A stretch of 64,000 bases of DNA from an uncultured Alphaproteobacteria bacterium. GTDB taxonomy: Bacteria > Pseudomonadota > Alphaproteobacteria > ATCC43930 > CGMCC-115725. Of the stretch, positions 5,489-55,360 are shown piece after piece (positions within the stretch are counted from its first letter, which is position 1; each line of letters begins with the position of its first letter). A model generated the notes under the pieces. That model was not told where the DNA came from, did not search any database, and saw nothing but the letters and a program-made list of their open reading frames with translations. The position numbers and the translations under genes were made by a program. Location of the stretch: contig CAVSQC010000013.1 in assembly GCA_963729845.1 (NCBI GenBank), positions 23,261 to 87,260 on the forward strand. Reading direction: 5' to 3'.

Positions 5489-5567
5489 CAGCCCCGCCGC
5501 CCCCGCGCCAATGACGGTAATGAGATGGAGGGATCCCTAACGTTTGCACCGCGCAATTTGAACTATA

Positions 5568-5646
5568 TTCGTCATTCCTGCGAAAGCAGGAATCCAGGGC
5601 AAGCGACGTGCGTTGGCCCTGGGTCCCCGCTTTCGCGAGGACGACG
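5568..5646. repeat. REP family B (two hairpins: GTCATTCCTGCGAAAGCAGGAATCC ... GTCCCCGCTTTCGCGAGGAC)
   Basis: An inverted copy with the same architecture lies at 31361-31438. Confidence 0.8.
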
Positions 5647-8322: not shown

Positions 8323-9086
8323 CCGAGCTCAGCGACGCCCAGTTCGAGCGTTACGCGCGTCACTTGATCCTCGACCAGGTCGGCGAGGAAGGGCAGGAGA
8401 AGCTCTTGGCCTCGCGCGTGCTGATTGTCGGCGCCGGCGGGCTCGGCTCGCCGCTGCTGCTCTATCTTGCGGCGGCGGGAGTCGGTACGCTCGGCATCGT
8501 CGACGACGACACGGTCGATCTCTCCAACCTCCAGCGCCAGATCGTGCATCCCAGCGGCGCGATCGGCGCGCGGAAGGTCGACAGCGCCCGCGCCACGGTG
8601 GCCGCGATCAACCCCGACGTGCGGGTCGAAACCCACGCGGCGCGGCTCGACGAGCGCAACGTCCGCGATCTCGTCGGCGCGTACGATCTGGTCGCCGACG
8701 GCAGCGATAATTTCGCCACGCGCTATCTCTTGAACGACACGTGCTACACGATGCGCCGCACGCTGGTCGGCGCGGCGCTGTCGCCGTTCGACGGTCAGCT
8801 CTCGACCTTCAAGGCCTATCTCGGACCGCCGCATCCCTGCTATCGCTGCCTGTTCCGCGAGGCGCCGCCGCCCGACACGGTGCCGCGTTGCGAGACCGCC
8901 GGCATTCTCGGCGCCGTCGCCGGCGTGATGGGCACGCTGCAAGCGACCGAGGTGCTGAAGGAACTGCTCGGCATCGGCGAGAGCCTCTCCGGCACGCTCC
9001 TGATGTACGACGCGCTGCGCGCCGGTTTCCACAGGATCAAAATTCCGCGCGACCCGGATTGTCCGACCTGTGGGCGTGGTCAGTGA
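8319..9086 (+). CDS. moeB: Molybdopterin-synthase adenylyltransferase / ThiF-MoeB family E1-like enzyme
   Basis: ATGA overlap with the cysK stop. [17 protein letters not shown] nucleotide loop, CYRC ... CPTC zinc motifs. Only the last 255 aa of ORF 7056-9086 are real. Confidence 0.85.
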
Positions 9087-24945: not shown

Positions 24946-26553
24946 GTTTCGATTACATCGTCATCGGCGCCGGGTCGGCGGGTTGCGTCGTGGCGAGCCG
25001 CCTGAGCGAGGATCCGTCGGCGCGGGTACTACTGCTCGAGGCGGGCGGCAAGCCCGACAGTCTGTGGGTCTCGATGCCGTCGGGCGTCGGCAAGCTGATC
25101 GAGCCGAACAAATTCAACTGGGGCTACAACAGCGAGCCCGAGCCCTATCTCGGCAACCGCACCATCTACGTGCCGCGCGGCAAGGGCCTGGGCGGCTCGA
25201 GCCTGATCAACGGCATGGCCTATGTCCGCGGCCATCCGCAGGATTATGACGGCTGGCGCCAGATGGGCAATCGCGGCTGGGGCTGGGACGATGTCCTGCC
25301 CTATTTCAAGAAATCGCAGCATCGCGTCGCGGCCGGCGGGAACGCCGACCCCGCGTTTCACGGCGCCGGCGGCCGGCTTCACGTCACCGATCCGCTGCAT
25401 CATCCGGCGTCGCGCGACTTCATCGAGGCCGGCGTGCGGCTCGGCCTGCCGCGTAATCCCGACTACAACGCGGCCCAGCAGGAAGGCATCGGCTTTCTGC
25501 AATTCACCATCCGCGATGGCCGCCGTCACAGCACATCGGCCGCGTTTCTCGCCGACGCCGCGCGGCGGCCGAACCTCACGATCGCGACCGAGGCGCTGGT
25601 GCGGCGCATCGTCTTCGACGGCAAACGCGCCACCGGCGTCGAATATCGCGCGCGGCGGCGAGACGCGCATCGAGACGGCCGCGCGCGAGGTGATCCTTTG
25701 CGCGGGCGCGATCGATTCACCCAAGCTGCTGATGCTGTCGGGCATCGGCCCGGGCGCGGCGTTGCAGGAGCAGGGCATTGCCCCGGTCCACGATCTGCCC
25801 GGCGTCGGCCGCAACCTGCAGGACCATCTCTATGTCCACTACACCGCGGATTCGACACCGGACAGTTCGATCAACGCCGAACTGCATGGGCTGCGCCTGC
25901 TGTATCACGGCGCCTATTATTTGCTGACGCGGAGCGGCGTGTTGACGCTCGGCTCGTCGCAGGCCTGCGCCTGGGTGCGCATCCTGCCCGGCGCCGACCG
26001 GCCCGACCTACAGATTTTCTTCCGCCCGGTGAGCTGGGAGTTCAGCCCGTCCGGCACGCTGGAGATCGGGCGCACGCCGTCGGTCTCGGCCTCGTGCAGC
26101 CCGATCCGTCCGCATTCGCGCGGCTGGATCGGCTTGCGCTCGCCCGACCCGGCGGCGCCGGCGAAGATCGTGCCGAACTATCTCGAGGCGGTGCCCGACC
26201 GCATCGCGGCGGTGAAGGGTTTCGCCCTGATACGCCGCATCATGGCGACCGAGCCGATGAAGTCGCGCATCGTGCGCGAGCGGTTTCCCGGGCCCGATTG
26301 CGCCACCGAGGACGATATCCTCGCCCATGTCCGCAACACCGTGCAGTCGCAGCATCACTGGGCCGGCTCGTGCAAGATGGGTAACGATTCGATGGCGGTG
26401 GTGGACGACCAGTTACGCGTCCATGGCGTCGAAGGCGTGCGCGTGATCGACGCCTCGATCATGCCGACGGTTTCCGCCGGCAACACCAACGCGCCGACCA
26501 TCATGATCGGCGAAAAGGGCGCCGACCTGATCAAGGGCCGCGCCGCCGCCTGA
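24942..26553 (+). pseudogene. GMC-family oxidoreductase (choline dehydrogenase-like), frame break near 25651
   Basis: MSFDYIVIGAGSAGCVVASRL FAD motif. Continues (GGETRIETAAREVILCAGAIDSPKLL ... HWAGSCKMG) in ORF 25222-26553. Confidence 0.8.
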
Positions 26554-26635
26554 CAGTCGCCAGCATTGCTTGTATGATTCGCGCCTGCGGGGCCTAAATC
26601 GCGATGACATATTTCTGGCGAGGACTAGACTTTTC

Positions 26636-26758
26636 TCGTCCCTCCCCCCTTGAGGGGGAGCGAGGAAATGCCGAGCGTCGGCGAGGCATTTCGAGTGGGG
26701 GGTGCAAGCGCGCCATACCCCCCACCCGGTCTCAGCCTTCGGCTTCGATCTTCCCTCC
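26636..26758. repeat. Cluster of REP family C palindromes
   Basis: CCCTCCCCCCTTGAGGGGGAG and TTCCCTCCCC... units. The last unit is split by the IS insertion. Confidence 0.7.
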
Positions 26759-26766
26759 CCCTCAAG

Positions 26767-26792
26767 GGGAACTCTCACCTTGACATAACATG
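26767..26792 (+). repeat. Left terminal inverted repeat GGGAACTCTCACCTTGACATAACATG
   Basis: Exact reverse complement of 30777-30802. The boundary is ambiguous by 1-2 nt because of the G run. Confidence 0.85.
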
Positions 26793-26890
26793 ATCTACCC
26801 ATAGTGTGACCGGACATTGCGAACGTCTCGGCACTCTACGGCTGGATCGGGCAGAGGAAAAGGTGATGGTTCCCTCCTTGAGAGGGAAAC

Positions 26891-27070
26891 ATGGAAAAGG
26901 AAATCGAGATTACGCGTGAAATGAAAATCGCCGGAGCGGCCATTATTGATGCTTCTTACGGGGTGGTCGACCAGGAGTTTCTTGCTGCACAGGTTTATAG
27001 TGCCATGGTCCGTATAGCTCTTGCCAAATCTCTGGTGGCATTGCTGCGTCAGCTCTCTTCTCGGCAATAA
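26891..27070 (+). CDS. Small hypothetical protein (59 aa, below the ORF-track cutoff)
   Basis: ATG preceded by GAGAGGGAAAC. MEKEIEITREMKIAGAAIIDASYGVVDQEFLAAQVYSAMVRIALAKS looks like a folded helical protein. It overlaps the 3' end of the opposite-strand ORF by 128 nt. Confidence 0.4.
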   Translation: MEKEIEITREMKIAGAAIIDASYGVVDQEFLAAQVYSAMVRIALAKSLVALLRQLSSRQ

Positions 27071-27527
27071 CCGCGATACGAATAGCTATCGCGCGCAAAT
27101 CCCGCGCAGCCGCACGAATGTCGTTTACGTTAAAATGAGTGACCTCGTAGTGCGCCGCTGTTTTCGCGGTATGAAGATTTTTTATGCGAGGGCCGTCTGA
27201 TGTAATCTCAAGCGTTCTGTGATTTAGGCGGTCTCGTAGCTCGCCGATTAGATTGTATTGGGTAGCAAGGAGGTCAAATTCGGCTTGGTCCGACTTGCCG
27301 ATTTCCAACAAATATCTGGTGATGGATATAACGTCAGATACGCGCTGGCCGCCAAAGATAGCGCGCGCGCGTGTCATGTCGGTTCCAGATTGTAGTTTGC
27401 ACAGAGTATTGAAGAGATTTCCGACAGTGGCGTATCTCTCACTCAAATGGCCTAACGCATGATATAATTCAGCGTCAGGGTCATCCTTAATTGCTGGTGG
27501 TGCCAGCGGAGGATTTATCGACGACAT
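26943..27527 (-). CDS. Hypothetical all-helical protein with an Rx4H (HEPN-like) motif
   Basis: 194 aa from ATG 27527 (ORF extends to TTG 27539). ELRDRLNHR matches the HEPN Rx4-6H signature in a helix-rich context. Long ORF in AT-rich DNA. Confidence 0.6.
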   Translation of the reverse strand: MSSINPPLAPPAIKDDPDAELYHALGHLSERYATVGNLFNTLCKLQSGTDMTRARAIFGGQRVSDVISITRYLLEIGKSDQAEFDLLATQYNLIGELRDRLNHRTLEITSDGPRIKNLHTAKTAAHYEVTHFNVNDIRAAARDLRAIAIRIAVIAEKRADAAMPPEIWQELYGPWHYKPVQQETPGRPPRKKHQ

Positions 27528-27738
27528 GCGTGCGCCCAAGAAAGTACAGAAAACCGGAAGCGAAATCCGCTCCGATGCTTGGGAGCGATTCGTGATGGCT
27601 GTGGGCTACGCGGTCAAGACCCCAGCGATGCACCGCGAAAGCAAGAAAGAGCGGCCAGCGAGTAAGGGGCGCGTACGTAAGGGCAAGAGTTCGTGCTTAA
27701 AACAGCGCGCCTATTTGTTGTTTTTATCTCAGTACTAA
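27526..27738 (+). CDS. Small basic hypothetical protein (70 aa), doubtful
   Basis: Its ATG shares a CATG with the divergent ORF start. Its 3' end overlaps the GTG-start signal peptide of the protease, so only one of the two models can be fully right. Confidence 0.25.
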   Translation: MRAPKKVQKTGSEIRSDAWERFVMAVGYAVKTPAMHRESKKERPASKGRVRKGKSSCLKQRAYLLFLSQY

Positions 27739-28623
27739 TTGCCCACTCGGCCGTAAGCGCGGTTCTCCCGCCATTTATGTTGGATTGTGTCGTCGCGCTC
27801 GGTGGGATGGGCAATATCAATCCCCCCGATAAGCCGCCCAACATTCAATGGATAACGATTGGTACGGGATTCTTTTATGCCTACAAGACTGTCGATGATC
27901 CGGACCCGAAAAAACGGAAATATCAAGTCTACCTCGTCACGGCGGGGCATGTGATTTCGGAATTTTTAGAAACGAACAAGGGCGATTTATCCGTGAGGAT
28001 AAATTTGAAAGATCCATCTCAGCCCGCTCAAGACATTTAATATTCCCAGAAAACCGCCAACTGGCGAATCAACGTGGTTCTTCCATCCAAAATATCGCCA
28101 AGGTGTTGCTGATAATGATATTGCAGCAGTTTCAATTCGGTGGGATTCGATCAAGGATTTGGGTGTCGCCTATATTTTGAGCGATATACAGACTGCCGAC
28201 ATTGAGAAGCTAAAAGCCCTCAAAATTTCCGCCGGAGATGGAGCCTTTGTTCTTGGGTTTCCTTTGCAACTCGCGGGGGTACAACGCAGTTACGTTATCG
28301 TGCGAAACGGGATTGTCGCACGAGTAAGTGACATGCTTGACCATACCTCTGGGACATTTCTCATGGACTCCTTTGTATTCCCCGGGAACAGCGGAAGCCC
28401 TGCCATTCTCAGACCGGAAATAGTATCAATTGAAGGTACGTCAGCAAATAATGCGGCGTATCTCATGGGAATTGTCGAAGGCTATTTGGCCTATTCAGAC
28501 ATTGCGATAAGTATGCAGACGCATCACCAGCGTATCACCTTTGAGGAAAATTCCGGGCTGGCAGAAATAATCCCCATGGATCGCGTGAATGAGGCCATCA
28601 AGGCGAGCGGGACATTGCCCTAG
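27693..28623 (+). pseudogene. Trypsin-like (S1/Trypsin_2) serine protease, probably exported, frame break near 28030
   Basis: Sec-type signal MLKTARLFVVFISVLIAHSAVSA. Catalytic triad contexts are TAGHVI, NDIAAV (readable only in the frame of 28159) and GNSGSP. Alternative cytoplasmic start at ATG 27777. Confidence 0.75.
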
Positions 28624-28913
28624 CTTTTACTGTTTGAATTCAAAGCTTTGAAAATTTCTTGAGCCGATATCTCCACGATTTTACCGCTATCGAAAATTAC
28701 TCTCATTCCTGTCAACTGGGTTAGATCAAGCACAGCCCAGTCCGGCATTTGAGAGATACCGCATGGGACATATTTTTCCGCCCCGCTCGCATCGCGTCCA
28801 TCGGCACAATAGGGACCGGATGATCCGCTGTCGGCGGCTTTCGCCATCATCCCCGGGATCAATGCTAGCGATGTAACCGACAGGATAGCGGAGCGCCGAT
28901 TTAATTTGCTCAT
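28620..28913 (-). CDS. Small exported protein (97 aa), unknown function
   Basis: Signal peptide with an RR motif (MSKLNRRSAILSVTSLALIPGMMAKA). Two Cys in the mature part. Its stop overlaps the protease stop (CTAG). Confidence 0.55.
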   Translation of the reverse strand: MSKLNRRSAILSVTSLALIPGMMAKAADSGSSGPYCADGRDASGAEKYVPCGISQMPDWAVLDLTQLTGMRVIFDSGKIVEISAQEIFKALNSNSKS

Positions 28914-29046
28914 AACAAACCCCTCGCATAAATTGCTCTTTGCGACGGGAAGGCTCCTGTCATCTCAGGCGGATCGGAAGTCCGCCGTACATCGTTGCCA
29001 CATAGCCGCATCGTGTACGCCCCTAGGCTACACGAACGGAATTGCT

Positions 29047-29424
29047 ATGTCCCCACTTTTTCAGGTTTGTGGTCGCTGTCCTTGCCGGACGCCTTTTCTG
29101 GCGAGTCCCGAAAATATACGGGCCGCACGGGAATTGCACTTTGTGGACCCACTGGACGATGGAATTAAAGAGATTGTCATTACCCTGATCGCCCACGGAA
29201 TTGAGACCTCGGAATCATGCGAGGGCGGTCCTGGTCATGCCTTCCCGGAACCCACAGTAAGATTCGAGGGCGATCAGCCTGAGGGGCTTAGGGCAGTTTC
29301 GGTCGCTTTAGCGTACGGGTTTCCAGTCACTCGGCTACGTCGCGCATGGGCGATAAAGGATGGGCTACTGCATGGACCGTGGTGGGAGATGACATTTGCC
29401 CCGCACAAGCCCATGCAGCAATAA
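29047..29424 (+). CDS. Hypothetical protein (125 aa) with N-terminal CGRCPC motif
   Basis: In-frame ATG within ORF 28906-29424. I recognise no family. Confidence 0.45.
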   Translation: MSPLFQVCGRCPCRTPFLASPENIRAARELHFVDPLDDGIKEIVITLIAHGIETSESCEGGPGHAFPEPTVRFEGDQPEGLRAVSVALAYGFPVTRLRRAWAIKDGLLHGPWWEMTFAPHKPMQQ

Positions 29425-29779
29425 GATCAGTTGCCCTTACGAGTTTCTTCCTGACATACGGTACACAGGCGATAGCCGCCGGTTCCCGCGCGCCGCTCAT
29501 GCTGGGGGATGTCTCGCCCCCGGAGCGCATGCGCTATTGTTGTGATGGACCTGTTGATTAGCAGGCTTCTTGCTTTCGTTGATTGAGTAAAATGCAGGCA
29601 CTACTGGCATGGTCGTTTCCTCGATTCCTGGCTAGGCGGCGCTCGCTCTTAGCTCGAACATAAGTAGGACTCCGCAACTTGAGCGAGTCAAGCGAATGAT
29701 AAGGGCCTACTTTTCCATGAATAGAAAGGCTAGTTGCCCTTCAGCCTCTAACCTTTCCCACTCGCGCGGCGGCGCGGGC

Positions 29780-30736
29780 CTACGCCTGATTGCGGTTTTC
29801 TTGCTCGCCGCAAGTCCGCCGATAAGTGAGACGGCGACCGACGATCCCCGGTAATGATTTCTGGAAGCGCTCGAAATCCGACACCTTCAACCCTTCACGT
29901 TCGTTGTAGCGGTAATCGAACTCGCCGAGATAGCGCTTCAGGTGTTGAGCGCTGACGCTGTGATAGGTGCCGGTGATCCCGCGTTTCAGGATCGAGAAAT
30001 AGCCTTCAATCGTGTTCGTGTGCGCGTCGCCGCGAACATACTCACCGATTGAGTGATTGACCTTCTGATGTTTCGGAAAATCGCGGTGCAGGTTGCGGTT
30101 CTCGCCCGCGTCATCCGTCATCAAGGCCGCGTCCATACTCAACTGTTCGTTCAAGATCGGGCGCAATGTGTCGGCGCTCACCGAAGGAACATGACGGGAG
30201 CGGACCTTGCCCTTGCGCTCGACCAGTGAATAGACAATCTCCTTGCCAGCGCCGCCGACCGCGCTGGTGCGCTTGTCGCGGTGCTTGTTCTTTTCCTTCC
30301 CACCAACATAGGTCGCGTCGCCCTCAACCGCCTTACCGCCGCCACCCATCTGCTCCAACACACGCGGCGGCAGGCTTTCACGGATACGGTGCATTAGGAA
30401 CCAAGACGACTTTTTGCTGATCCCGAGCAAGCGGCCAATTTCGAGCGAGCTAATGCCCTTCTTGCCAGCCATCAGCAATTGCGTTGCGGCGAGCCATTTG
30501 TGTAGCGGGATTTTGCTGCGCTCGTACAGGGTGCCGACTGTGACGGTGAACGGCTCGCGGCAAGCATTGCACTGGTAGAGGCCGGGACGATGGCTTTCGC
30601 CTTTTAGCAAGGTGGAATTGTCCACCACGCCACAATGCGGGCAGAACCGACCATGCGCCCAGATTTGCGCTTCCAGCCATTCGCGGGCCGCTTCCTCGTT
30701 GTGGAAGATCGGGTTTGACAAAAGTGCTTCGGACAT
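29780..30736 (-). CDS. IS1595-family transposase (zinc ribbon + ISXO2-like DDE domain)
   Basis: Uninterrupted 318 aa. N-terminal CPHCG...CNAC zinc ribbon, HKWLAATQLL, DATYVGGKEKNKH. The start is 41 nt inside the right IR. Confidence 0.9.
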   Translation of the reverse strand: MSEALLSNPIFHNEEAAREWLEAQIWAHGRFCPHCGVVDNSTLLKGESHRPGLYQCNACREPFTVTVGTLYERSKIPLHKWLAATQLLMAGKKGISSLEIGRLLGISKKSSWFLMHRIRESLPPRVLEQMGGGGKAVEGDATYVGGKEKNKHRDKRTSAVGGAGKEIVYSLVERKGKVRSRHVPSVSADTLRPILNEQLSMDAALMTDDAGENRNLHRDFPKHQKVNHSIGEYVRGDAHTNTIEGYFSILKRGITGTYHSVSAQHLKRYLGEFDYRYNEREGLKVSDFERFQKSLPGIVGRRLTYRRTCGEQENRNQA

Positions 30737-30776
30737 GCTCGGCTCCCTTGAATGAGGCCGATTACATCATGTTGTG

Positions 30777-30802
30777 CATGTTATGTCAAGGTGAGAGTTC
30801 CC
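30777..30802 (-). repeat. Right terminal inverted repeat
   Basis: Exact reverse complement of 26767-26792. Confidence 0.85.
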
Positions 30803-30836: not shown

Positions 30837-32670
30837 GTGACCGCAGCGCGCCGCCTGGCCGCAATTCTCGCCGTCGATGTCGCGGGCTATTCGCGGCTCA
30901 TGGGCGAGGACGAGGCCGGCACGGCCAAGGCCGTGCGCGAGCATCGCGAGGCGGCGCGGCCGGTGGTGCAGGGGCTTGGCGGCCGCATCGTCAAGACCAT
31001 GGGCGACGGCGTGCTGTTGGAATTTCCCTCGGTGGTCGCCGCCGTCGAATGCGCCATCGCCCTGCAGAAACTCATGGTCGGCCGTAATGCCGACGTGCCC
31101 GAGGGCAAGCGCATCGTCTATCGCATCGGCGTCCATCTCGGCGACGTGCTGATCGACGGCGACGATATTTTGGGCGACGGCGTCAACATCGCGGCGCGCC
31201 TCGAAGCCATCGCCGCGCCGGGCGGCATCTGTCTCTCCGGCATGGCGTATGAGTCCGTGCGCGGCAAGGTCGAGGCGGACTTCACCGATCTCGGCGAGCG
31301 CGAGTTGAAGAACATCGCCCGGCCCGTGCGGGTTTATGCGAGCGCGCCTCAAGACACTTCCGTCGTCCCCGCGAAAGCGGGGACCCAGGGCGACCGTGCG
31401 TCGCTAACCCTGATTCCCGCTTACGCGGGAATGACGAAAGTGGGGCGATGGCGCAAAAGGAAAATTCGCCGCCCCGTCTCTCCATCGTCGTGCTGCCGTT
31501 TGCCAATATTGGCGGCGACCCGGAGCAGGAATATTTCGTCGACGGCGTCACCGAGATCGCTCACTACCGACCTGTCACGCATCTCGGGAAGTTTCGTGAT
31601 CGCGCGCAACACGGCATTCACGTTCAAGAGCAAGCCGGTCGACGTGAAACAGATCGGGCGCGAGTTGAACGTGCGCTACCTCCTCGAAGGCTCGGTGCAG
31701 CGCGGCGGCAACCGCATGCGTGTCAACGTGCAGCTCATCGAAGCCGAGACCGGCATTCATCTTTGGGCCGAGCGCTTCGATAAGCCGGTGGCCGATCTCT
31801 TCGACATGCAAGACGAGATCGTTGCGTATCTTGCTAACCAGTTGAACACGCAACTCGTCGTTGCCGAGGCCCGTCGCGCGGAGCGGGCGCCGCTTCCCGA
31901 TTCGATGGACCTCTATTTCCAAGGCACTGCCTGCTTTCACAAGGGGTATAACCCCGAAAACCTCGCACAAGCACGCCGCTATTTCGAACGCGCCCTGGCG
32001 CTCGATCCCAACAATATCGAGGCGTTGGCGGGCGAGGCGCTGGTTGATGTTGTTATTGGCGGCGGTGTGATGAGCGAAGATCGCGTTCTCCGTATCGCCG
32101 CCGCTGAAGCTGCCGCAAACAAGGTGCTGTCAGTGGCACCGAACCACGCCCCCGCTCATTACATTTTGGGCTTTGTCCATATTGTTACCAACCGCGCGGC
32201 GCAGGGCATGGCCGAGTGCGAGCATGCGCTGGCATTAGACCGATAACCTAGCCGCAGCCCATGCGATGATAGGCCTCGCGAAATCCGTCCTTGGACGCGC
32301 GGAGGAAACGGAGGGCCATGTCCGCGAAGCGCTCCGGCTTAGCCCACGAGAAATTACCGCCAATTCGTGGATGCACCTCGCCGGCGGCGCCAAACTGGTT
32401 CTCGGCAGGGACCAAGAAGCGGTTGCCTGGCTGCGCCGGTCCATTGAGGCCAACCGAACTTACCCTCTCGCGCATTTCTATCTCGCCGCTGCCTTGGTTC
32501 ATCTCGACCGATTGGAGGAGGCGCGGGCCTCCGTGCAGACAGGACTGGTGCTGGATCCGACCTTCACCATCCGCCGCTACCGCGCAGGCGCATCGAGCGA
32601 CAATCCGACCTATCTGGCGCAGCGCGAACACATCTATGACGGCATGCGCAAGGCCGGGGTCCCGGAGGGT
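30837..32670 (+). pseudogene. Class III adenylate/guanylate cyclase domain + TolB-like + TPR protein, disrupted by a REP and frame breaks
   Basis: RRLAAILAVDVAGYSRLM ... GDGVNIAARLE cyclase domain. REP-B inside the linker. PRLSIVVLPFANIGGDPEQEYFVDGVTE is out of frame (own ATG at 31448). Breaks at 31556 and 32244. No stop after ...GVPEG. Confidence 0.75.
31361..31438. repeat. REP family B copy inside the cyclase reading frame
   Basis: Inverted copy of 5568-5646, translated as VVPAKAGTQGDRASLTLIPAYAGMTK. Confidence 0.8.
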
Positions 32671-32688
32671 GAGCCCGAAAAGCCCGCG

Positions 32689-33890
32689 CCGCCGCGCCTC
32701 TCCATCGTCGTGCTGCCCTTCGCCAATCTCGGCGGCGACCCGGAGCAGGAATATTTCGTCGACGGCGTCACCGAGATCGCTCACTACCGACCTGTCACGC
32801 ATCTCGGGCAAGTTTCGTGATCGCGCGCAACACGGCGTTTACCTACAAGGGCAAGCCTGTCGACGTGAAGCAGATCGGCCGCGACCTCAATATCCGCTAC
32901 GTCCTCGAAGGCTCGGTGCAGCGCGGCGGCAACCGCATGCGGGTCAATGTCCAGCTCATCGACGCCGAGACCGGCAACCACCTTTGGGCCGAGCGTTTCG
33001 ACAAGCCGGTCGCCGACCTCTTCGACATGCAGGACGAAATCGTCGCCCGCCTGGCGAATCAACTGAACGCCGAACTGATCGAAGCGGAAGCGCGGCGCGC
33101 CGAAAAAAAGCCAAATCCCAATTCAATGGATTTCTATTTCCAGGGGCGGGCTTGGTTGAACAAAGGCATCGCACCCGCCAATCTGACGCCAGCCGGTAAT
33201 TTCCTCGAACGGGCACTGGCACTCGACCCCGACAATGTGGAAGCGTTGGTCGCAACGGCATACCTTCGCGCGCTTCGCGCAGCAGCACGGCTGGCGGACG
33301 ACGTGACAACGTCGCTATCGGTCGCTGAAGAAAATTTGAACCGCGCTCTTATTATCGCACCGGACTATGCCCAGGCGCATCACGCCCTCGGCACGGTGTA
33401 CAACTCCACCAAACGCGCCGCGCTGGGCTTGTCCGAATGCGAACACGCGTTGACCCTCGACCGCAATTTAGCCATCGCTTATGGCGGCATGGGCCGCTCC
33501 AAATTATTGCTCGGTCGAGCCGAGGAAACGGAAAATCATGTGTTGGAAGCGCTCCGTCTCAGCCCGCGCGACAGTCTGGCCTTTGCCTGGATGAATGTCG
33601 CCGGTTATGCGAAATTGCTTCTCGGGCGCGATGAAGAGGCCATTGTGTGGCTGCGCCGCAGCATCGACAGAAATCGCAATCTGAACAATTCGCACTATTG
33701 GCTCGCCGTTGCGTTGACTCGGCTTGGACGGACCGAGGAAGCAAAGGCCGCCGCGCAGATCGCGCGCCAACTTAATCCCGACTTCGTCAAACGCTTGCGG
33801 TCGGATGTTTGGAGCGACGACCCGGTCTACCTCGCTCAATTTGAGCGGGTCATGGACGGTCTCCGCGCGGCGGGGTTGCCGGAAGGATAG
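32689..33890 (+). pseudogene. Tandem duplicate of the TolB-like + TPR module (no cyclase domain, no own start), two frame breaks
   Basis: PPRLSIVVLPFANLGGDPEQEYFVDGVTE / SLTTDLSRISG / FVIARNTAFTYKGKPVDVKQIGRDL... Breaks at 32776 and 32809. Ends at ...AAGLPEG TAG. Confidence 0.7.
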
Positions 33891-34025: not shown

Positions 34026-34053
34026 AGCAAAAGCCGGCACCGCGCCGCCGGCT
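34026..34053 (-). terminator. Rho-independent terminator of the PAS-domain gene
   Basis: Minus strand reads AGCCGGC-GGCGCGGT-GCCGGCT followed by TTTTGC. The stem overlaps the stop codon. Confidence 0.6.
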
Positions 34054-34570
34054 AGCGGGCGAGGACGGGCAGCGTGTCGAGGGCGATGCGCTCGGTGCGG
34101 GGTGGCTGCGCCTTCCACACCGGGTCGGAGGAATGCGGCACCAGGATGCTGATGAGGAAATCGCAGCGGTGGCCGTCGGTCGCCAGCGGCATCACCAGCG
34201 CCTCGACGTTGAGGTTGCGGTGGCCGATGATGTGGTTGAAGTGCCGCTCCAGCGCCGGTCGGCCGGTGTTCGCGACCTGGCCGAGATGGTCGTGCGCCAT
34301 GTCGATCCAGGCCTTGCTGGCGCCTTCGTCGACATATTTGCCGGTCAGGTCGTAGCCGACCCAGCGTGCCGTCTCGGTGCCGTGGATGCGATAGCGGAAC
34401 CGCATAGGGTCGCGATAGACGTCGAGCAGCGACAGCATCCCGAGCACGCCGCGGAACAACAGCGGGTCGAAATCGGCGCGCCTAGGACAAGGCGCGTCGC
34501 GGCGTAGGCGCAGCCAAGCATCATAGGCGCCGGCCAGCGAGGGCGAGAGCAGGTCCATTCGGTGAAGCAT
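34052..34570 (-). CDS. PAS domain-containing protein (PAS_5/DUF1457-like)
   Basis: 172 aa. PCPRRADFDP ... DPMRFRYRIHGTE ... motifs are typical of this alphaproteobacterial family. Confidence 0.75.
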   Translation of the reverse strand: MLHRMDLLSPSLAGAYDAWLRLRRDAPCPRRADFDPLLFRGVLGMLSLLDVYRDPMRFRYRIHGTETARWVGYDLTGKYVDEGASKAWIDMAHDHLGQVANTGRPALERHFNHIIGHRNLNVEALVMPLATDGHRCDFLISILVPHSSDPVWKAQPPRTERIALDTLPVLAR

Positions 34571-34849: not shown

Positions 34850-35827
34850 ATGTTGGTCAAATCGAAGCGCGGATGGGAAATCCCCGAGAGCCAGGCGACG
34901 CCGGAAAGCGTCTATGCCAATCGCCGGACGCTGCTGAAGGCGATGGGCTTGGGCGCGGTGGCGCTGGCGGCCGATTTGCCGTTCCGCCGGGCCTTTGCCG
35001 GCGCGCCGGCGGACGACCCGTCGGCCAAGCTCTACCCCTTCAAGCGCAACGACACGTTCAAGCTCGACCGGCCGATCACCGACGCGAAGTATTCGACCGA
35101 CTACAATAATTTCTACGAATTCAGCACCGACAAGGAACTGGTCGACCTGGCGCAGAAGCTGCCGGTCCGGCCGTGGACCGTCGCCGTCGACGGCATGGTG
35201 GAAAAGCCGTTCCAGATCGGCATCGACGATCTACTGGCGAAAATGGCGCCGCATCTCGAGGAGCGGCTTTATCGCCACCGCTGCGTCGAGGCCTGGTCGA
35301 TGGCGGTGCCGTGGAGCGGCTTCGGCCTCAAGGAATTCGTGGCGATGTGCAAGCCGCTGTCCTCGGCGACCTATCTCAAGATGATCACCTTCATGAATCC
35401 CGACGTGGCGCCGGGGCAGGGTGCGTTGTTTTATCCGTGGCCCTACACCGAAGGCTTGACCATGGACGAGGCGACCAACGAGCTCGCGTTCCTGGTCACC
35501 GGCATGTACGGCAAGCCGGTGCCGAAGCAGGACGGCGCGCCGCTGCGGCTCGCGGTGCCGTGGAAATATGGTTTCAAGTCGGTCAAGTCGATCGTGAAAT
35601 TCACCTTCACCGACAAACAGCCGCGCACCTTCTGGGAGGATCTCCAGGAGAGCGAGTACGGGTTCTGGGCCAACGTCAATCCGCAAGTGCCGCATCCGCG
35701 CTGGAGCCAGGCCACCGAGCGCGTGATCGGTACCGACGATCGGGTGCCGACCCAGATGTGGAACGGCTACGGCGACTATGTCGCGCACCTCTACGACAAA
35801 CTGAAAGGCGAGCGCCTTTTCGCATAA
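34850..35827 (+). CDS. msrP: Protein-methionine-sulfoxide reductase catalytic subunit MsrP (YedY)
   Basis: SD AGAGGAG. Tat-type signal RRTLLKAMGLGAVALA. Molybdopterin oxidoreductase core. Uninterrupted 325 aa. Confidence 0.85.
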   Translation: MLVKSKRGWEIPESQATPESVYANRRTLLKAMGLGAVALAADLPFRRAFAGAPADDPSAKLYPFKRNDTFKLDRPITDAKYSTDYNNFYEFSTDKELVDLAQKLPVRPWTVAVDGMVEKPFQIGIDDLLAKMAPHLEERLYRHRCVEAWSMAVPWSGFGLKEFVAMCKPLSSATYLKMITFMNPDVAPGQGALFYPWPYTEGLTMDEATNELAFLVTGMYGKPVPKQDGAPLRLAVPWKYGFKSVKSIVKFTFTDKQPRTFWEDLQESEYGFWANVNPQVPHPRWSQATERVIGTDDRVPTQMWNGYGDYVAHLYDKLKGERLFA

Positions 35828-54832: not shown

Positions 54833-55360
54833 ATGCCCCATAGCGGTCCCGTCTTCGGCCTTGCCGGCTGGAGCGGCAGCGGCAAGACCACGCTGATCGA
54901 GAAACTGTTGCCGGTGCTGGCGGGGCGGGGCTTGCGCGTCTCGACCTTGAAGCACGCGCACCAGGATTTCGATTTCGACAAGCCGGGCAAGGATTCCTGG
55001 CGCCACCGCCACGCCGGCGCCGCGCGAGGTGATGGTGTCGTCGCCAAAGCGCTGGGCGCTGGTCCACGAAGTGCGCGGCGAGATCGAGCCCGAGCCTGCG
55101 GCGATCTGCTGGCGCGCATGGGCGCGGCCGATCTGGTGATCGTCGAGGGGTTCAAGCGCGAGCCGTTCCCGAAACTCGAAGTGTATCGCGCGGCGCTGGG
55201 TAAGCCGCTGATCGCGCCGGACGATCGCGATATCGTCGCCATCGCCTCGGACGCGCCGGTGCCTGGCCTCGCGTTGCCGCGCTTCGACCTGAACGACGCG
55301 GCGGGGATCGCGGAATTCGTGATGCGTTTTTGCCGCCTGGGCGAGAGCCGCGCGGTCTGA
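54833..55360 (+). CDS. mobB: Molybdopterin-guanine dinucleotide biosynthesis adapter protein MobB (open ORF with a compensated out-of-frame segment ~55025-55095)
   Basis: GWSGSGKTTL P-loop and DLVIVEGFK. The middle part is readable as REVMVSSPKRWALVHEVRGEIEPEP only in another frame. Confidence 0.8.
   Translation: MPHSGPVFGLAGWSGSGKTTLIEKLLPVLAGRGLRVSTLKHAHQDFDFDKPGKDSWRHRHAGAARGDGVVAKALGAGPRSARRDRARACGDLLARMGAADLVIVEGFKREPFPKLEVYRAALGKPLIAPDDRDIVAIASDAPVPGLALPRFDLNDAAGIAEFVMRFCRLGESRAV

What the first reader, a model, noticed from the sequence alone, without database searches (positions are those of the whole stretch)
31448..33890. Tandem duplication of a TolB-like + TPR module whose two copies share an identical 78-nt tract containing the same frameshift
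Copy 1 (about 31466-32670) follows a class III cyclase domain. Copy 2 (about 32689-33890) follows copy 1 directly, with no stop after ...GVPEG and no start of its own. The copies have diverged over most of their length. However, 31511-31588 and 32731-32808 are identical. Both contain GAG-A-TCG (extra a at 31556 and 32776), which breaks ...EQEYFVDGVTE | SLTTDLSRISG at the same point. Copy 2 has a further extra c at 32809, and copy 1 has an extra t that creates the TAA at 32244. A shared lesion inside an identical island within otherwise diverged paralogs suggests gene conversion after the frameshift arose. That argues this frameshift is biological and not random read error. A systematic basecalling error at a sequence motif is the alternative: without the a, the site would read GAGTC, a GANTC CcrM-type methylation site.
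Basis: partly seen in the sequence, partly recalled or inferred. Interest (0 to 1): 0.6.

Follow-up and report, generated by a model that had tools for sequence, protein, structure and literature searches.

The report
Frameshifts are assembly errors; gene intact
The "shared frameshift" in the two copies is a recurrent sequencing or assembly error at a GAGTC motif, and the underlying gene is an ordinary, intact signalling enzyme with a doubled sensor module, so the finding matters mainly as a quality warning for this assembly.

Summary
The sequence is as described: 31511-31588 and 32731-32808 are identical, and each carries an extra a that breaks ...GVTE|SLTTDLSRISG.

The lesions are not biological. 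Contigs built from short reads of six soil and sediment metagenomes match the locus with no substitutions. They lack the a at 31556, the a at 32776, the c at 32809 and one base at 32242. They also carry a G that the window lacks after 31411. With those five changes, 30837-33890 is a single open reading frame of 1016 codons.

The same comparison finds 31 single-base indels across the window (26 extra, 5 missing). These break ordinary genes such as the MobB, CDP-alcohol phosphatidyltransferase and GMC oxidoreductase genes.

Five of the 31 indels lie within 3 nt of one of the 21 GAGTC/GACTC sites (P about 1e-7). Four of the six GAGTCG sites are hit. An identical context gives an identical error.

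Gene conversion between the two copies is real. The true identical tract is 104 nt, and copy 1 there resembles copy 2 rather than its closest relative.

Cyclases with two or three such modules already exist in databases. Interest is low.

The parts
30837..33890 (+). One gene. It reads as a single 1016-codon ORF once the five single-base assembly indels are set aside. Architecture: class III cyclase domain, linker, then two (TolB_N-like + TPR) modules.
   Evidence: the read-through has no internal stop. Pfam Guanylate_cyc at residues 9-159, TolB_N in two stretches, and TPR families.
30837..31349 (+). Class III adenylate/guanylate cyclase catalytic domain.
   Evidence: PF00211 scores 33.9 bits against a cut-off of 21.9. 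PDB 3mr7 matches with E = 9e-47 over residues 3-169.
31358..31438 (+). REP-like double-hairpin repeat element embedded in frame in the interdomain linker. It encodes ...VVPAKAGTQGDRASLTLDSRLRGNDE...
   Evidence: DNA fold of -32.1 kcal/mol, z = -5.8; a second copy lies at about 5560-5645 on the minus strand, with compensatory changes in hairpin 2; the linker is about 30 aa longer than in P0008.
31411..31412 (+). Assembly error: one G is missing (the true sequence reads CCCTGGATTCC), directly before a GATTC site.
   Evidence: contigs from X3 and X4 have the G; the other copy of the repeat element also has GG here.
31466..32670 (+). Module 1 (TolB_N-like domain + TPR region), 401 codons.
   Evidence: its TPR part is 88% nt identical to the single-module gene P0008 (L005).
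31511..31615 (+). Copy-1 arm of the identical tract (104 true nt plus the spurious a at 31556). This is a gene-conversion tract.
31556..31556 (+). Spurious extra a inside GAGTCG.
   Evidence: X5 contig of 197 nt covering 31513-31710, with 0 substitutions, lacks this base and runs on into copy-1-specific sequence.
32242..32242 (+). Spurious extra g that creates the TAA at 32244-32246.
   Evidence: X1 contig covering 31890-32450 and X3 contig covering 32116-32267 (0 substitutions) both lack it.
32686..33890 (+). Module 2 (TolB_N-like domain + TPR region), 400 codons. It is fused to module 1 with no stop or start between them.
32731..32836 (+). Copy-2 arm of the identical tract (104 true nt plus the spurious a at 32776 and c at 32809).
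32776..32776 (+). Spurious extra a inside GAGTCG.
   Evidence: contigs from X1 (32737-32923), X4 (32732-32867) and X6 (from 32719) have 0 substitutions and lack this base. All three reach copy-2-specific sequence.
32809..32809 (+). Spurious extra c.
   Evidence: the same X1 and X4 contigs lack it.

Best explanation
The locus is one intact gene for a cytoplasmic class III nucleotidyl cyclase, followed by two tandem TolB_N-like + TPR modules. These modules presumably mediate regulatory protein-protein interactions.

All five frame disruptions are single-base consensus errors of the assembly, not mutations. The assembly carries such errors throughout the window, mostly as extra bases. A subset recurs at GAGTC/GACTC, and especially at GAGTCG. 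GAGTC is a GANTC site, the target of the CcrM adenine methylase of Alphaproteobacteria.

The 5' parts of the two modules have been homogenised by gene conversion, giving 104 identical nt. The same motif therefore sits in the same context in both copies, and the same error appears twice.

What is shown:
- The lesions are absent from independent short-read data.
- The error pattern extends across the whole window.
- The errors are enriched at the motif.
- The conversion signal is present.

What is inferred:
- The assembly comes from native-DNA long reads.
- Methylation of GANTC causes the motif-linked errors.
For: 1. Short-read metagenome contigs with zero substitutions lack 31556, 32242, 32776 and 32809, and contain a G after 31411. 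Those five changes give one 1016-codon ORF.
2. There are 31 single-base indel discrepancies window-wide, 26 extra and 5 missing. At 19 of 27 testable sites the GC3 phase shifts in exactly the direction expected of a frame-breaking artefact (P = 9e-5).
3. With the short-read versions, seven other genes give end-to-end Pfam matches across the sites. Examples are MobB 1-133/133, CDP-OH_P_transf 1-151/152 and GMC_oxred_N 1-217/218.
4. Five indels lie within 3 nt of the 21 GAGTC/GACTC sites (P = 1e-7), and 4 of the 6 GAGTCG sites are affected. GAATC/GATTC sites are not enriched.
5. Errors linked to methylation motifs, including GANTC in Brucella and agrobacteria, are documented for nanopore assemblies. 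They affect only some occurrences of a motif (PMC12392509, PMC12710330).
6. For conversion: codon identity at identical residues is 78% in the first 120 codons and 42% in the rest. There is a 104-nt exact run (P = 6e-5). In the tract, copy 1 is 100% identical to copy 2 but 74% identical to P0008, while in the TPR part it is 88% identical to P0008 and 59% identical to copy 2.
Against: - The reads behind this assembly were not available, and the platform is unknown.
- The metagenome contigs come from close relatives (about 99% identical elsewhere), not provably from the same strain.
- The insertion bias and the rate of about 0.5 per kb are heavier than in the published nanopore isolate studies, where errors are mostly substitutions.
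- Most of the 31 indels (25) are not at GANTC, so methylation explains only a subset.
- Methylation of GANTC in this organism was not measured.
Confidence: 0.88

Rival explanations
1. The lesions are real. The gene is a decaying pseudogene in this strain, and the a insertion arose once and was copied to the other module by gene conversion.
For: Gene conversion between the modules is real. An IS1595 transposase and a low-GC segment lie next door, a setting where pseudogenes are common. The local density of lesions (5 in 3 kb) is higher than the window average.
Against: Contigs that are otherwise 100% identical, from several independent metagenomes, lack every lesion. Across the stretches covering the lesions there are five indels and no substitutions. 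The same kind of +1 lesion breaks housekeeping-type genes across the whole window and recurs at single-copy GAGTCG sites at 27690 and 50666.
Confidence: 0.05
2. The duplicated error comes from cross-talk during polishing. Reads or consensus from one copy were placed on the other within the identical tract, so a random error in one copy was propagated to both.
For: The tract is identical over 104 nt, which is long enough to confuse short alignment windows.
Against: This does not explain why the same motif carries indels at three single-copy sites (19553, 27690, 50666). Long reads would be anchored by the diverged flanks.
Confidence: 0.04
3. The tandem arrangement itself is a misassembly, and the true locus holds a single cyclase-TolB-like-TPR gene.
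For: No short-read contig at 97% likeness or above spans 32647-32718. The junction sequence was not found in JGI metagenome contigs. The nearest relative, P0008, has one module and ends ...GVPEE.
Against: The two modules are only 65% identical in protein and 59% identical in DNA over the TPR part, so neither can be a collapsed or expanded copy of the other. Unique parts of both modules occur in the same metagenomes. Two- and three-module relatives with equally short junctions exist, namely P0009, P0039 and P0001.
Confidence: 0.03

Closest known systems
Systematic consensus errors at methylated motifs in long-read bacterial assemblies (nanopore; GATC, GANTC and R-M motifs)
   Same: Errors cluster at or within a few bases of a methylation motif. 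Only some occurrences of the motif are affected. GANTC is named for Brucella and agrobacteria (PMC12392509, PMC12710330). Here there are 5 indels at 21 GAGTC/GACTC sites.
   Different: The published cases are mostly substitutions, with few per genome. Here they are single-base insertions on top of a high background of non-motif indels (about 0.5 per kb). The platform and the methylation state of this genome are unknown.
Single-module cyclase-TolB-like-TPR proteins of soil Hyphomicrobiales/Xanthobacteraceae (about 590 aa; for example P0008, 76% identical)
   Same: They share the same cyclase domain, the same PRLSIVVLPFANIGGDPEQEYFVDGVTESLTTDLSRISG motif and the same TPR region. Thousands of members exist.
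   Different: The window gene carries a second module fused in frame and a REP-like insert in the linker. P0008 lies in a different gene neighbourhood.
Multi-module members of the same family (P0009 at 1052 aa, P0039 and P0111 at 1036 aa, P0001 at 1227 aa, P0003/P0004 at about 1430 aa)
   Same: A cyclase is followed by two or three TolB-like + TPR modules joined by short linkers, with no stop between them.
   Different: They are only 45-56% identical to the window protein, so none is a close orthologue.
Concerted evolution (intragenic gene conversion) between tandem repeats
   Same: There is a sharply bounded tract of identity inside otherwise diverged repeats. Similarity to an outside relative is mosaic.
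   Different: Nothing unusual. The direction of transfer could not be determined, because no close relative of module 2 was found (best 68%).
PDB 3mr7, adenylate/guanylate cyclase domain (structural genomics)
   Same: It aligns with residues 3-169 of the cyclase domain at E = 9e-47, including the ...D.AGYS......GDG... and ...VN.AARLE... motifs.
   Different: It is an isolated domain. No solved structure includes the TolB-like + TPR modules.

Membership tests
Class III nucleotidyl cyclase | Sequence match to the catalytic domain above the curated threshold | tested here: met
   PF00211 scores 33.9 bits against a cut-off of 21.9 over residues 9-159. PDB 3mr7 matches at E = 9e-47.
Class III nucleotidyl cyclase | Metal-binding Asp pair and the Asn/Arg of the transition-state motif | tested here: met
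   AVDVAGYS, KTMGDGV and GVNIAARLE are visible in the translation and align with the same residues of 3mr7. Assigning roles to these residues rests on general knowledge of the family. Enzyme activity was not tested.
TolB_N-like + TPR module | TolB_N/FlgO/LpoB-type domain followed by TPR repeats, present twice | tested here: met
   PF04052 scores 38.6 bits against a cut-off of 22.4, in two stretches. Several TPR families score above their cut-offs in both halves.
Gene conversion tract | A run of identity longer than expected from the surrounding divergence | tested here: met
   A 104-nt run within a 360-nt domain that holds 37 differences, P = 6.5e-5. At codon level the run is 34 codons, P = 6e-5.
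Gene conversion tract | Mosaic relationship to an outside relative | tested here: met
   Copy 1 against P0008 is 88% identical in the TPR part but 74% in the tract. Copy 1 against copy 2 is 59% in the TPR part and 100% in the tract. Only one outside gene was available.
Methylation-motif-linked long-read assembly error | Disagreement with independent short-read sequence of the same or a near-identical genome | tested here: met
   for the locus. for the rest of the window.
Methylation-motif-linked long-read assembly error | Recurrence at one sequence motif beyond chance | tested here: met
   5 of 31 indels lie within 3 nt of the 21 GAGTC/GACTC sites, P = 1e-7. 4 of 6 GAGTCG sites are affected, and the other two are covered by contigs and correct.
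Methylation-motif-linked long-read assembly error | The motif is methylated in this organism, and the assembly comes from native-DNA long reads | not testable with these tools
   No reads of the source genome could be found. An alphaproteobacterial origin is suggested only by the names of homologues (Hyphomicrobiales, Xanthobacteraceae) and by GANTC depletion (109 observed, 206 expected).
Pseudogene / biological frameshift | The lesion is present in independent sequence of the lineage | tested here: not met
   All five lesions are absent from otherwise identical contigs of several metagenomes.
Programmed ribosomal frameshift | The shift site is conserved in relatives, with the two-frame arrangement retained | tested here: not met
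   Relatives encode GVTESLTTDLSRI in one frame. Near-identical contigs lack the extra base.

The most novel reading that the evidence does not exclude
The extra bases are real in this particular strain. On this reading, the lineage suffers +1 insertions preferentially at methylated GAGTC sites, a methylation-linked mutational hotspot. This has inactivated many genes, and the cyclase lesion either arose twice or was copied by conversion.
Probability: 0.03. Interest if true: 0.6.

Novelty: not a real feature. Interest (0 to 1): 0.1.

Why it matters
- **Assembly quality.** The window, and presumably the whole assembly, carries roughly one false single-base indel per 2 kb. Some recur at GAGTC(G). 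Any apparent pseudogene or frameshift in this genome should be distrusted until it is checked against short reads.
- **A general trap.** Paralogous sequences homogenised by gene conversion present identical contexts to a basecaller. A systematic error is then duplicated and looks like a shared, inherited mutation.
- **The underlying biology is ordinary.** The real features are a two-module cyclase-TolB-like-TPR gene, internal conversion and a REP-like insert in a linker.

Tried and rejected
- **Public genomes.** A pattern scan of 185,579 species genomes for the tract, with or without the extra base, gave four chance hits in unrelated taxa. The source genome and close relatives are not in that collection.
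- **JGI metagenome contigs.** Two pattern scans, one for the module junction and one for the tract, found nothing.
- **Exact-protein look-up.** The intact neighbour MsrP-like ORF (34850-35827) is not on record, so the source record could not be named.
- **Long-read runs.** Searches for nanopore or PacBio runs holding the locus listed none, so the platform and per-read evidence could not be examined.
- **Junction coverage.** Short-read contigs at 97% likeness or above do not span 32647-32718, so the module junction is not independently confirmed.
- **General GANTC effect.** This was rejected in its broad form. The 91 GAATC/GATTC sites show no enrichment, with one nearby indel (P = 0.39). Only GAGTC/GACTC is affected.
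- **Longest-open-frame test.** Comparing the longest open frame before and after adjustment was uninformative at some sites, because this high-GC DNA has long spurious open frames. I replaced it with the GC3 phase test and Pfam continuity.
- **Close relative of module 2.** No relative closer than 68% was found, so the donor and recipient of the conversion remain undetermined.

Full report
**The observation**

Positions 31511-31588 and 32731-32808 are identical over 78 nt, and the identity does not extend on either side.

Three-frame translation shows the following path:
- The cyclase domain lies in frame 0 (30837 onward).
- 'PRLSIVVLPFANIGGDPEQEYFVDGVTE' lies in frame 2.
- After the a at 31556, 'SLTTDLSRISGSFVIARN...' runs in frame 0 to the TAA at 32244-32246.
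- Frame 1 continues through ...GVPEGEPEKPAPPRLSIVVLPF...GVTE.
- The a at 32776 shifts to frame 2.
- The c at 32809 shifts to frame 0, which runs to the stop at 33888-33890.

The cyclase (frame 0) and the start of module 1 (frame 2) are also out of register.

**Independent sequence of the locus**

No run holds the whole locus. Several soil, sediment and wetland metagenomes hold up to 38% of its 31-mers. Their assembled short contigs were laid on the window. The contigs that match with zero substitutions disagree with the window only by single-base indels, and these sit exactly at the frame breaks:

| Site | Difference in contigs | Contigs |
|---|---|---|
| 31556 | base absent | X5, 197 nt, 31513-31710, runs into copy-1-specific sequence |
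| 32776 and 32809 | bases absent | X1, 32737-32923; X4, 32732-32867 |
| 32776 | base absent | X6, starting at 32719 |
| 32242 | base absent | X1, 31890-32450; X3, 32116-32267 |
| after 31411 | an extra G present | X3 and X4 |

A second copy of the repeat element that contains 31411 also has the GG. Applying the five differences turns 30837-33890 into one uninterrupted ORF of 1016 codons.

**The rest of the window**

The same comparison over 1-30800 and 34001-64000 gives 26 further single-base indel discrepancies. The window total is 31, of which 26 are extra bases in the window and 5 are missing bases. The contigs cover only part of the window, so this is a lower bound.

At 19 of 27 testable sites, the position of highest GC in the codon shifts by exactly the amount expected if the window's indel breaks a reading frame (P = 9e-5 against a one-in-three chance).

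With the short-read versions, seven other genes give end-to-end Pfam matches that span the sites:
- MobB, 1-133 of 133, which had three indels within 75 nt
- CDP-alcohol phosphatidyltransferase, 1-151 of 152
- GMC oxidoreductase, N and C domains
- a Meth_synt_2 protein
- a LigB-type dioxygenase
- a Rieske/LigXa oxygenase
- a GT4 glycosyltransferase

Pervasive +1 insertions occur in ordinary genes, and substitutions are no more frequent around them than elsewhere. This is the signature of consensus error, not of decay.

**The motif**

After adjustment the window has 21 GAGTC/GACTC sites. Five indels lie within 3 nt of one of them: 19553, 27690, 31556, 32776 and 50666. The binomial P is 1e-7.

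Read on the GAGTC strand, four of the six GAGTCG sites are affected. The other two, at 8479 and 39098, are covered by contigs and are correct. The 91 GAATC/GATTC sites show no enrichment.

The error therefore depends on context, not merely on the motif. This is what the literature describes for methylation-linked nanopore errors, where only some occurrences of a motif are affected and greater depth does not cure them. GANTC is named for Brucella and agrobacteria (PMC12392509, PMC12710330).

Several points remain inference:
- Homologue names (Hyphomicrobiales, Xanthobacteraceae) and GANTC depletion (109 observed, 206 expected) suggest that the organism is an alphaproteobacterium.
- That it methylates GANTC follows only from that taxonomic placement.
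- No reads of the source genome could be found, so long-read origin is unconfirmed.
- Most indels (25 of 31) are not at GANTC and reflect a generally noisy consensus.

**Why the same error appears twice**

The two modules are 65% identical in protein and 68% in DNA overall, but the similarity is uneven.
- At positions with identical residues, the codons are identical in 78% of cases in the first 120 codons and in 42% of cases in the remaining 281.
- With the spurious bases ignored, the exact identity runs for 104 nt (31511-31615 and 32731-32836). A run that long has P = 6e-5 when differences are shuffled within the domain.

The gene of the closest relative, P0008 (one module, 76% identical protein; L005), gives a mosaic pattern:

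| Region | Copy 1 vs P0008 | Copy 1 vs copy 2 |
|---|---|---|
| TPR part | 88% | 59% |
| Identical tract | 74% (all three encode the same peptide) | 100% |

Gene conversion between the two modules is therefore real. It placed the same GAGTCG in the same 104-nt context in both copies, and a context-dependent error then struck both.

**What the gene is**

Pfam finds a Guanylate_cyc domain (residues 9-159), two TolB_N/FlgO-like domains and TPR repeats in both halves. The cyclase domain matches PDB 3mr7 at E = 9e-47, and the usual D...D and N..R motifs are present.

The family is very large in soil metagenomes:
- Both searches saturated at 8000 hits.
- Most hits are about 590 aa with one module.
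- Proteins with two or three modules exist, at 1036-1435 aa and 45-56% identity. They have equally short junctions, for example ...GMPEVAEDKLVSAPHLSIVVLPF... in P0009.

The architecture is therefore a known minority form. Module 2 is not a recent copy of module 1, because its TPR part is about equally distant from module 1 and from P0008. No relative of module 2 closer than 68% was found.

By analogy with other class III cyclases, the likely function is cAMP or cGMP synthesis regulated through the TolB-like and TPR modules. This rests on domain content only.

**Caveats**

- The metagenome contigs come from populations about 99% identical to the window elsewhere, not demonstrably from the same strain.
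- The module junction (32647-32718) is not spanned by any short-read contig at 97% likeness or above. It was also not found in JGI contigs.
- Misassembly is nonetheless unlikely. The modules are far too diverged to be collapsed or expanded copies. Unique parts of both occur in the same samples. Multi-module relatives exist.

**Verdict**

- The biological reading of the frameshift is refuted.
- Gene conversion is real but ordinary.
- Interest is low, apart from the quality warning for this assembly.

Noticed in passing
window 31358-31438 (+) and about 5560-5645 (-): An ~80-nt REP-like element with two GC-rich hairpins sits in frame inside the cyclase-to-module linker. It makes the linker about 30 aa longer than in P0008. 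A second copy elsewhere in the window has compensatory changes in hairpin 2 (CCCGC/GCGGG versus CCTGC/GCAGG).
   Followed up: partly
window 55024, 55091/55092, 55098 (MobB-like gene 54833-55357); also 54145, 54160, 54655: This is a cluster of single-base indel discrepancies. Three fall within 75 nt of one small gene, and the short-read versions restore a full-length MobB match. Together with the cyclase locus, this is the densest patch of errors in the window.
   Followed up: partly
window 26000-30800: This low-GC segment (52-57% against about 66% elsewhere) holds ORFs with no family match and an IS1595-family transposase (29780-30736, minus strand) directly upstream of the cyclase gene. It is probably a horizontally acquired or variable region.
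   Followed up: partly
whole window: GANTC is depleted, with 109 sites against about 206 expected from base composition. GAGTC/GACTC make up only 21 of them after adjustment.
   Followed up: no
window 31680-31860 and 32814-33025: Metagenome contig depth piles up to 60-190x on the TolB_N-like domain segments, against about 5x on unique flanks. The DNA of this domain is therefore shared at 90% or more by many paralogues or taxa in these soils.
   Followed up: no
L005 6001-7773 (P0008 locus): The closest relative, which has a single module, lies between a hydrolase gene and argD/argF-like genes, near polA. This neighbourhood is unlike the window's, so it is not a positional orthologue of the two-module gene.
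   Followed up: partly
window 34052-34570 (-) and 34850-35827 (+): The downstream neighbours are a PAS_5-domain protein and an MsrP-type molybdopterin oxidoreductase. Both are intact in the window.
   Followed up: no
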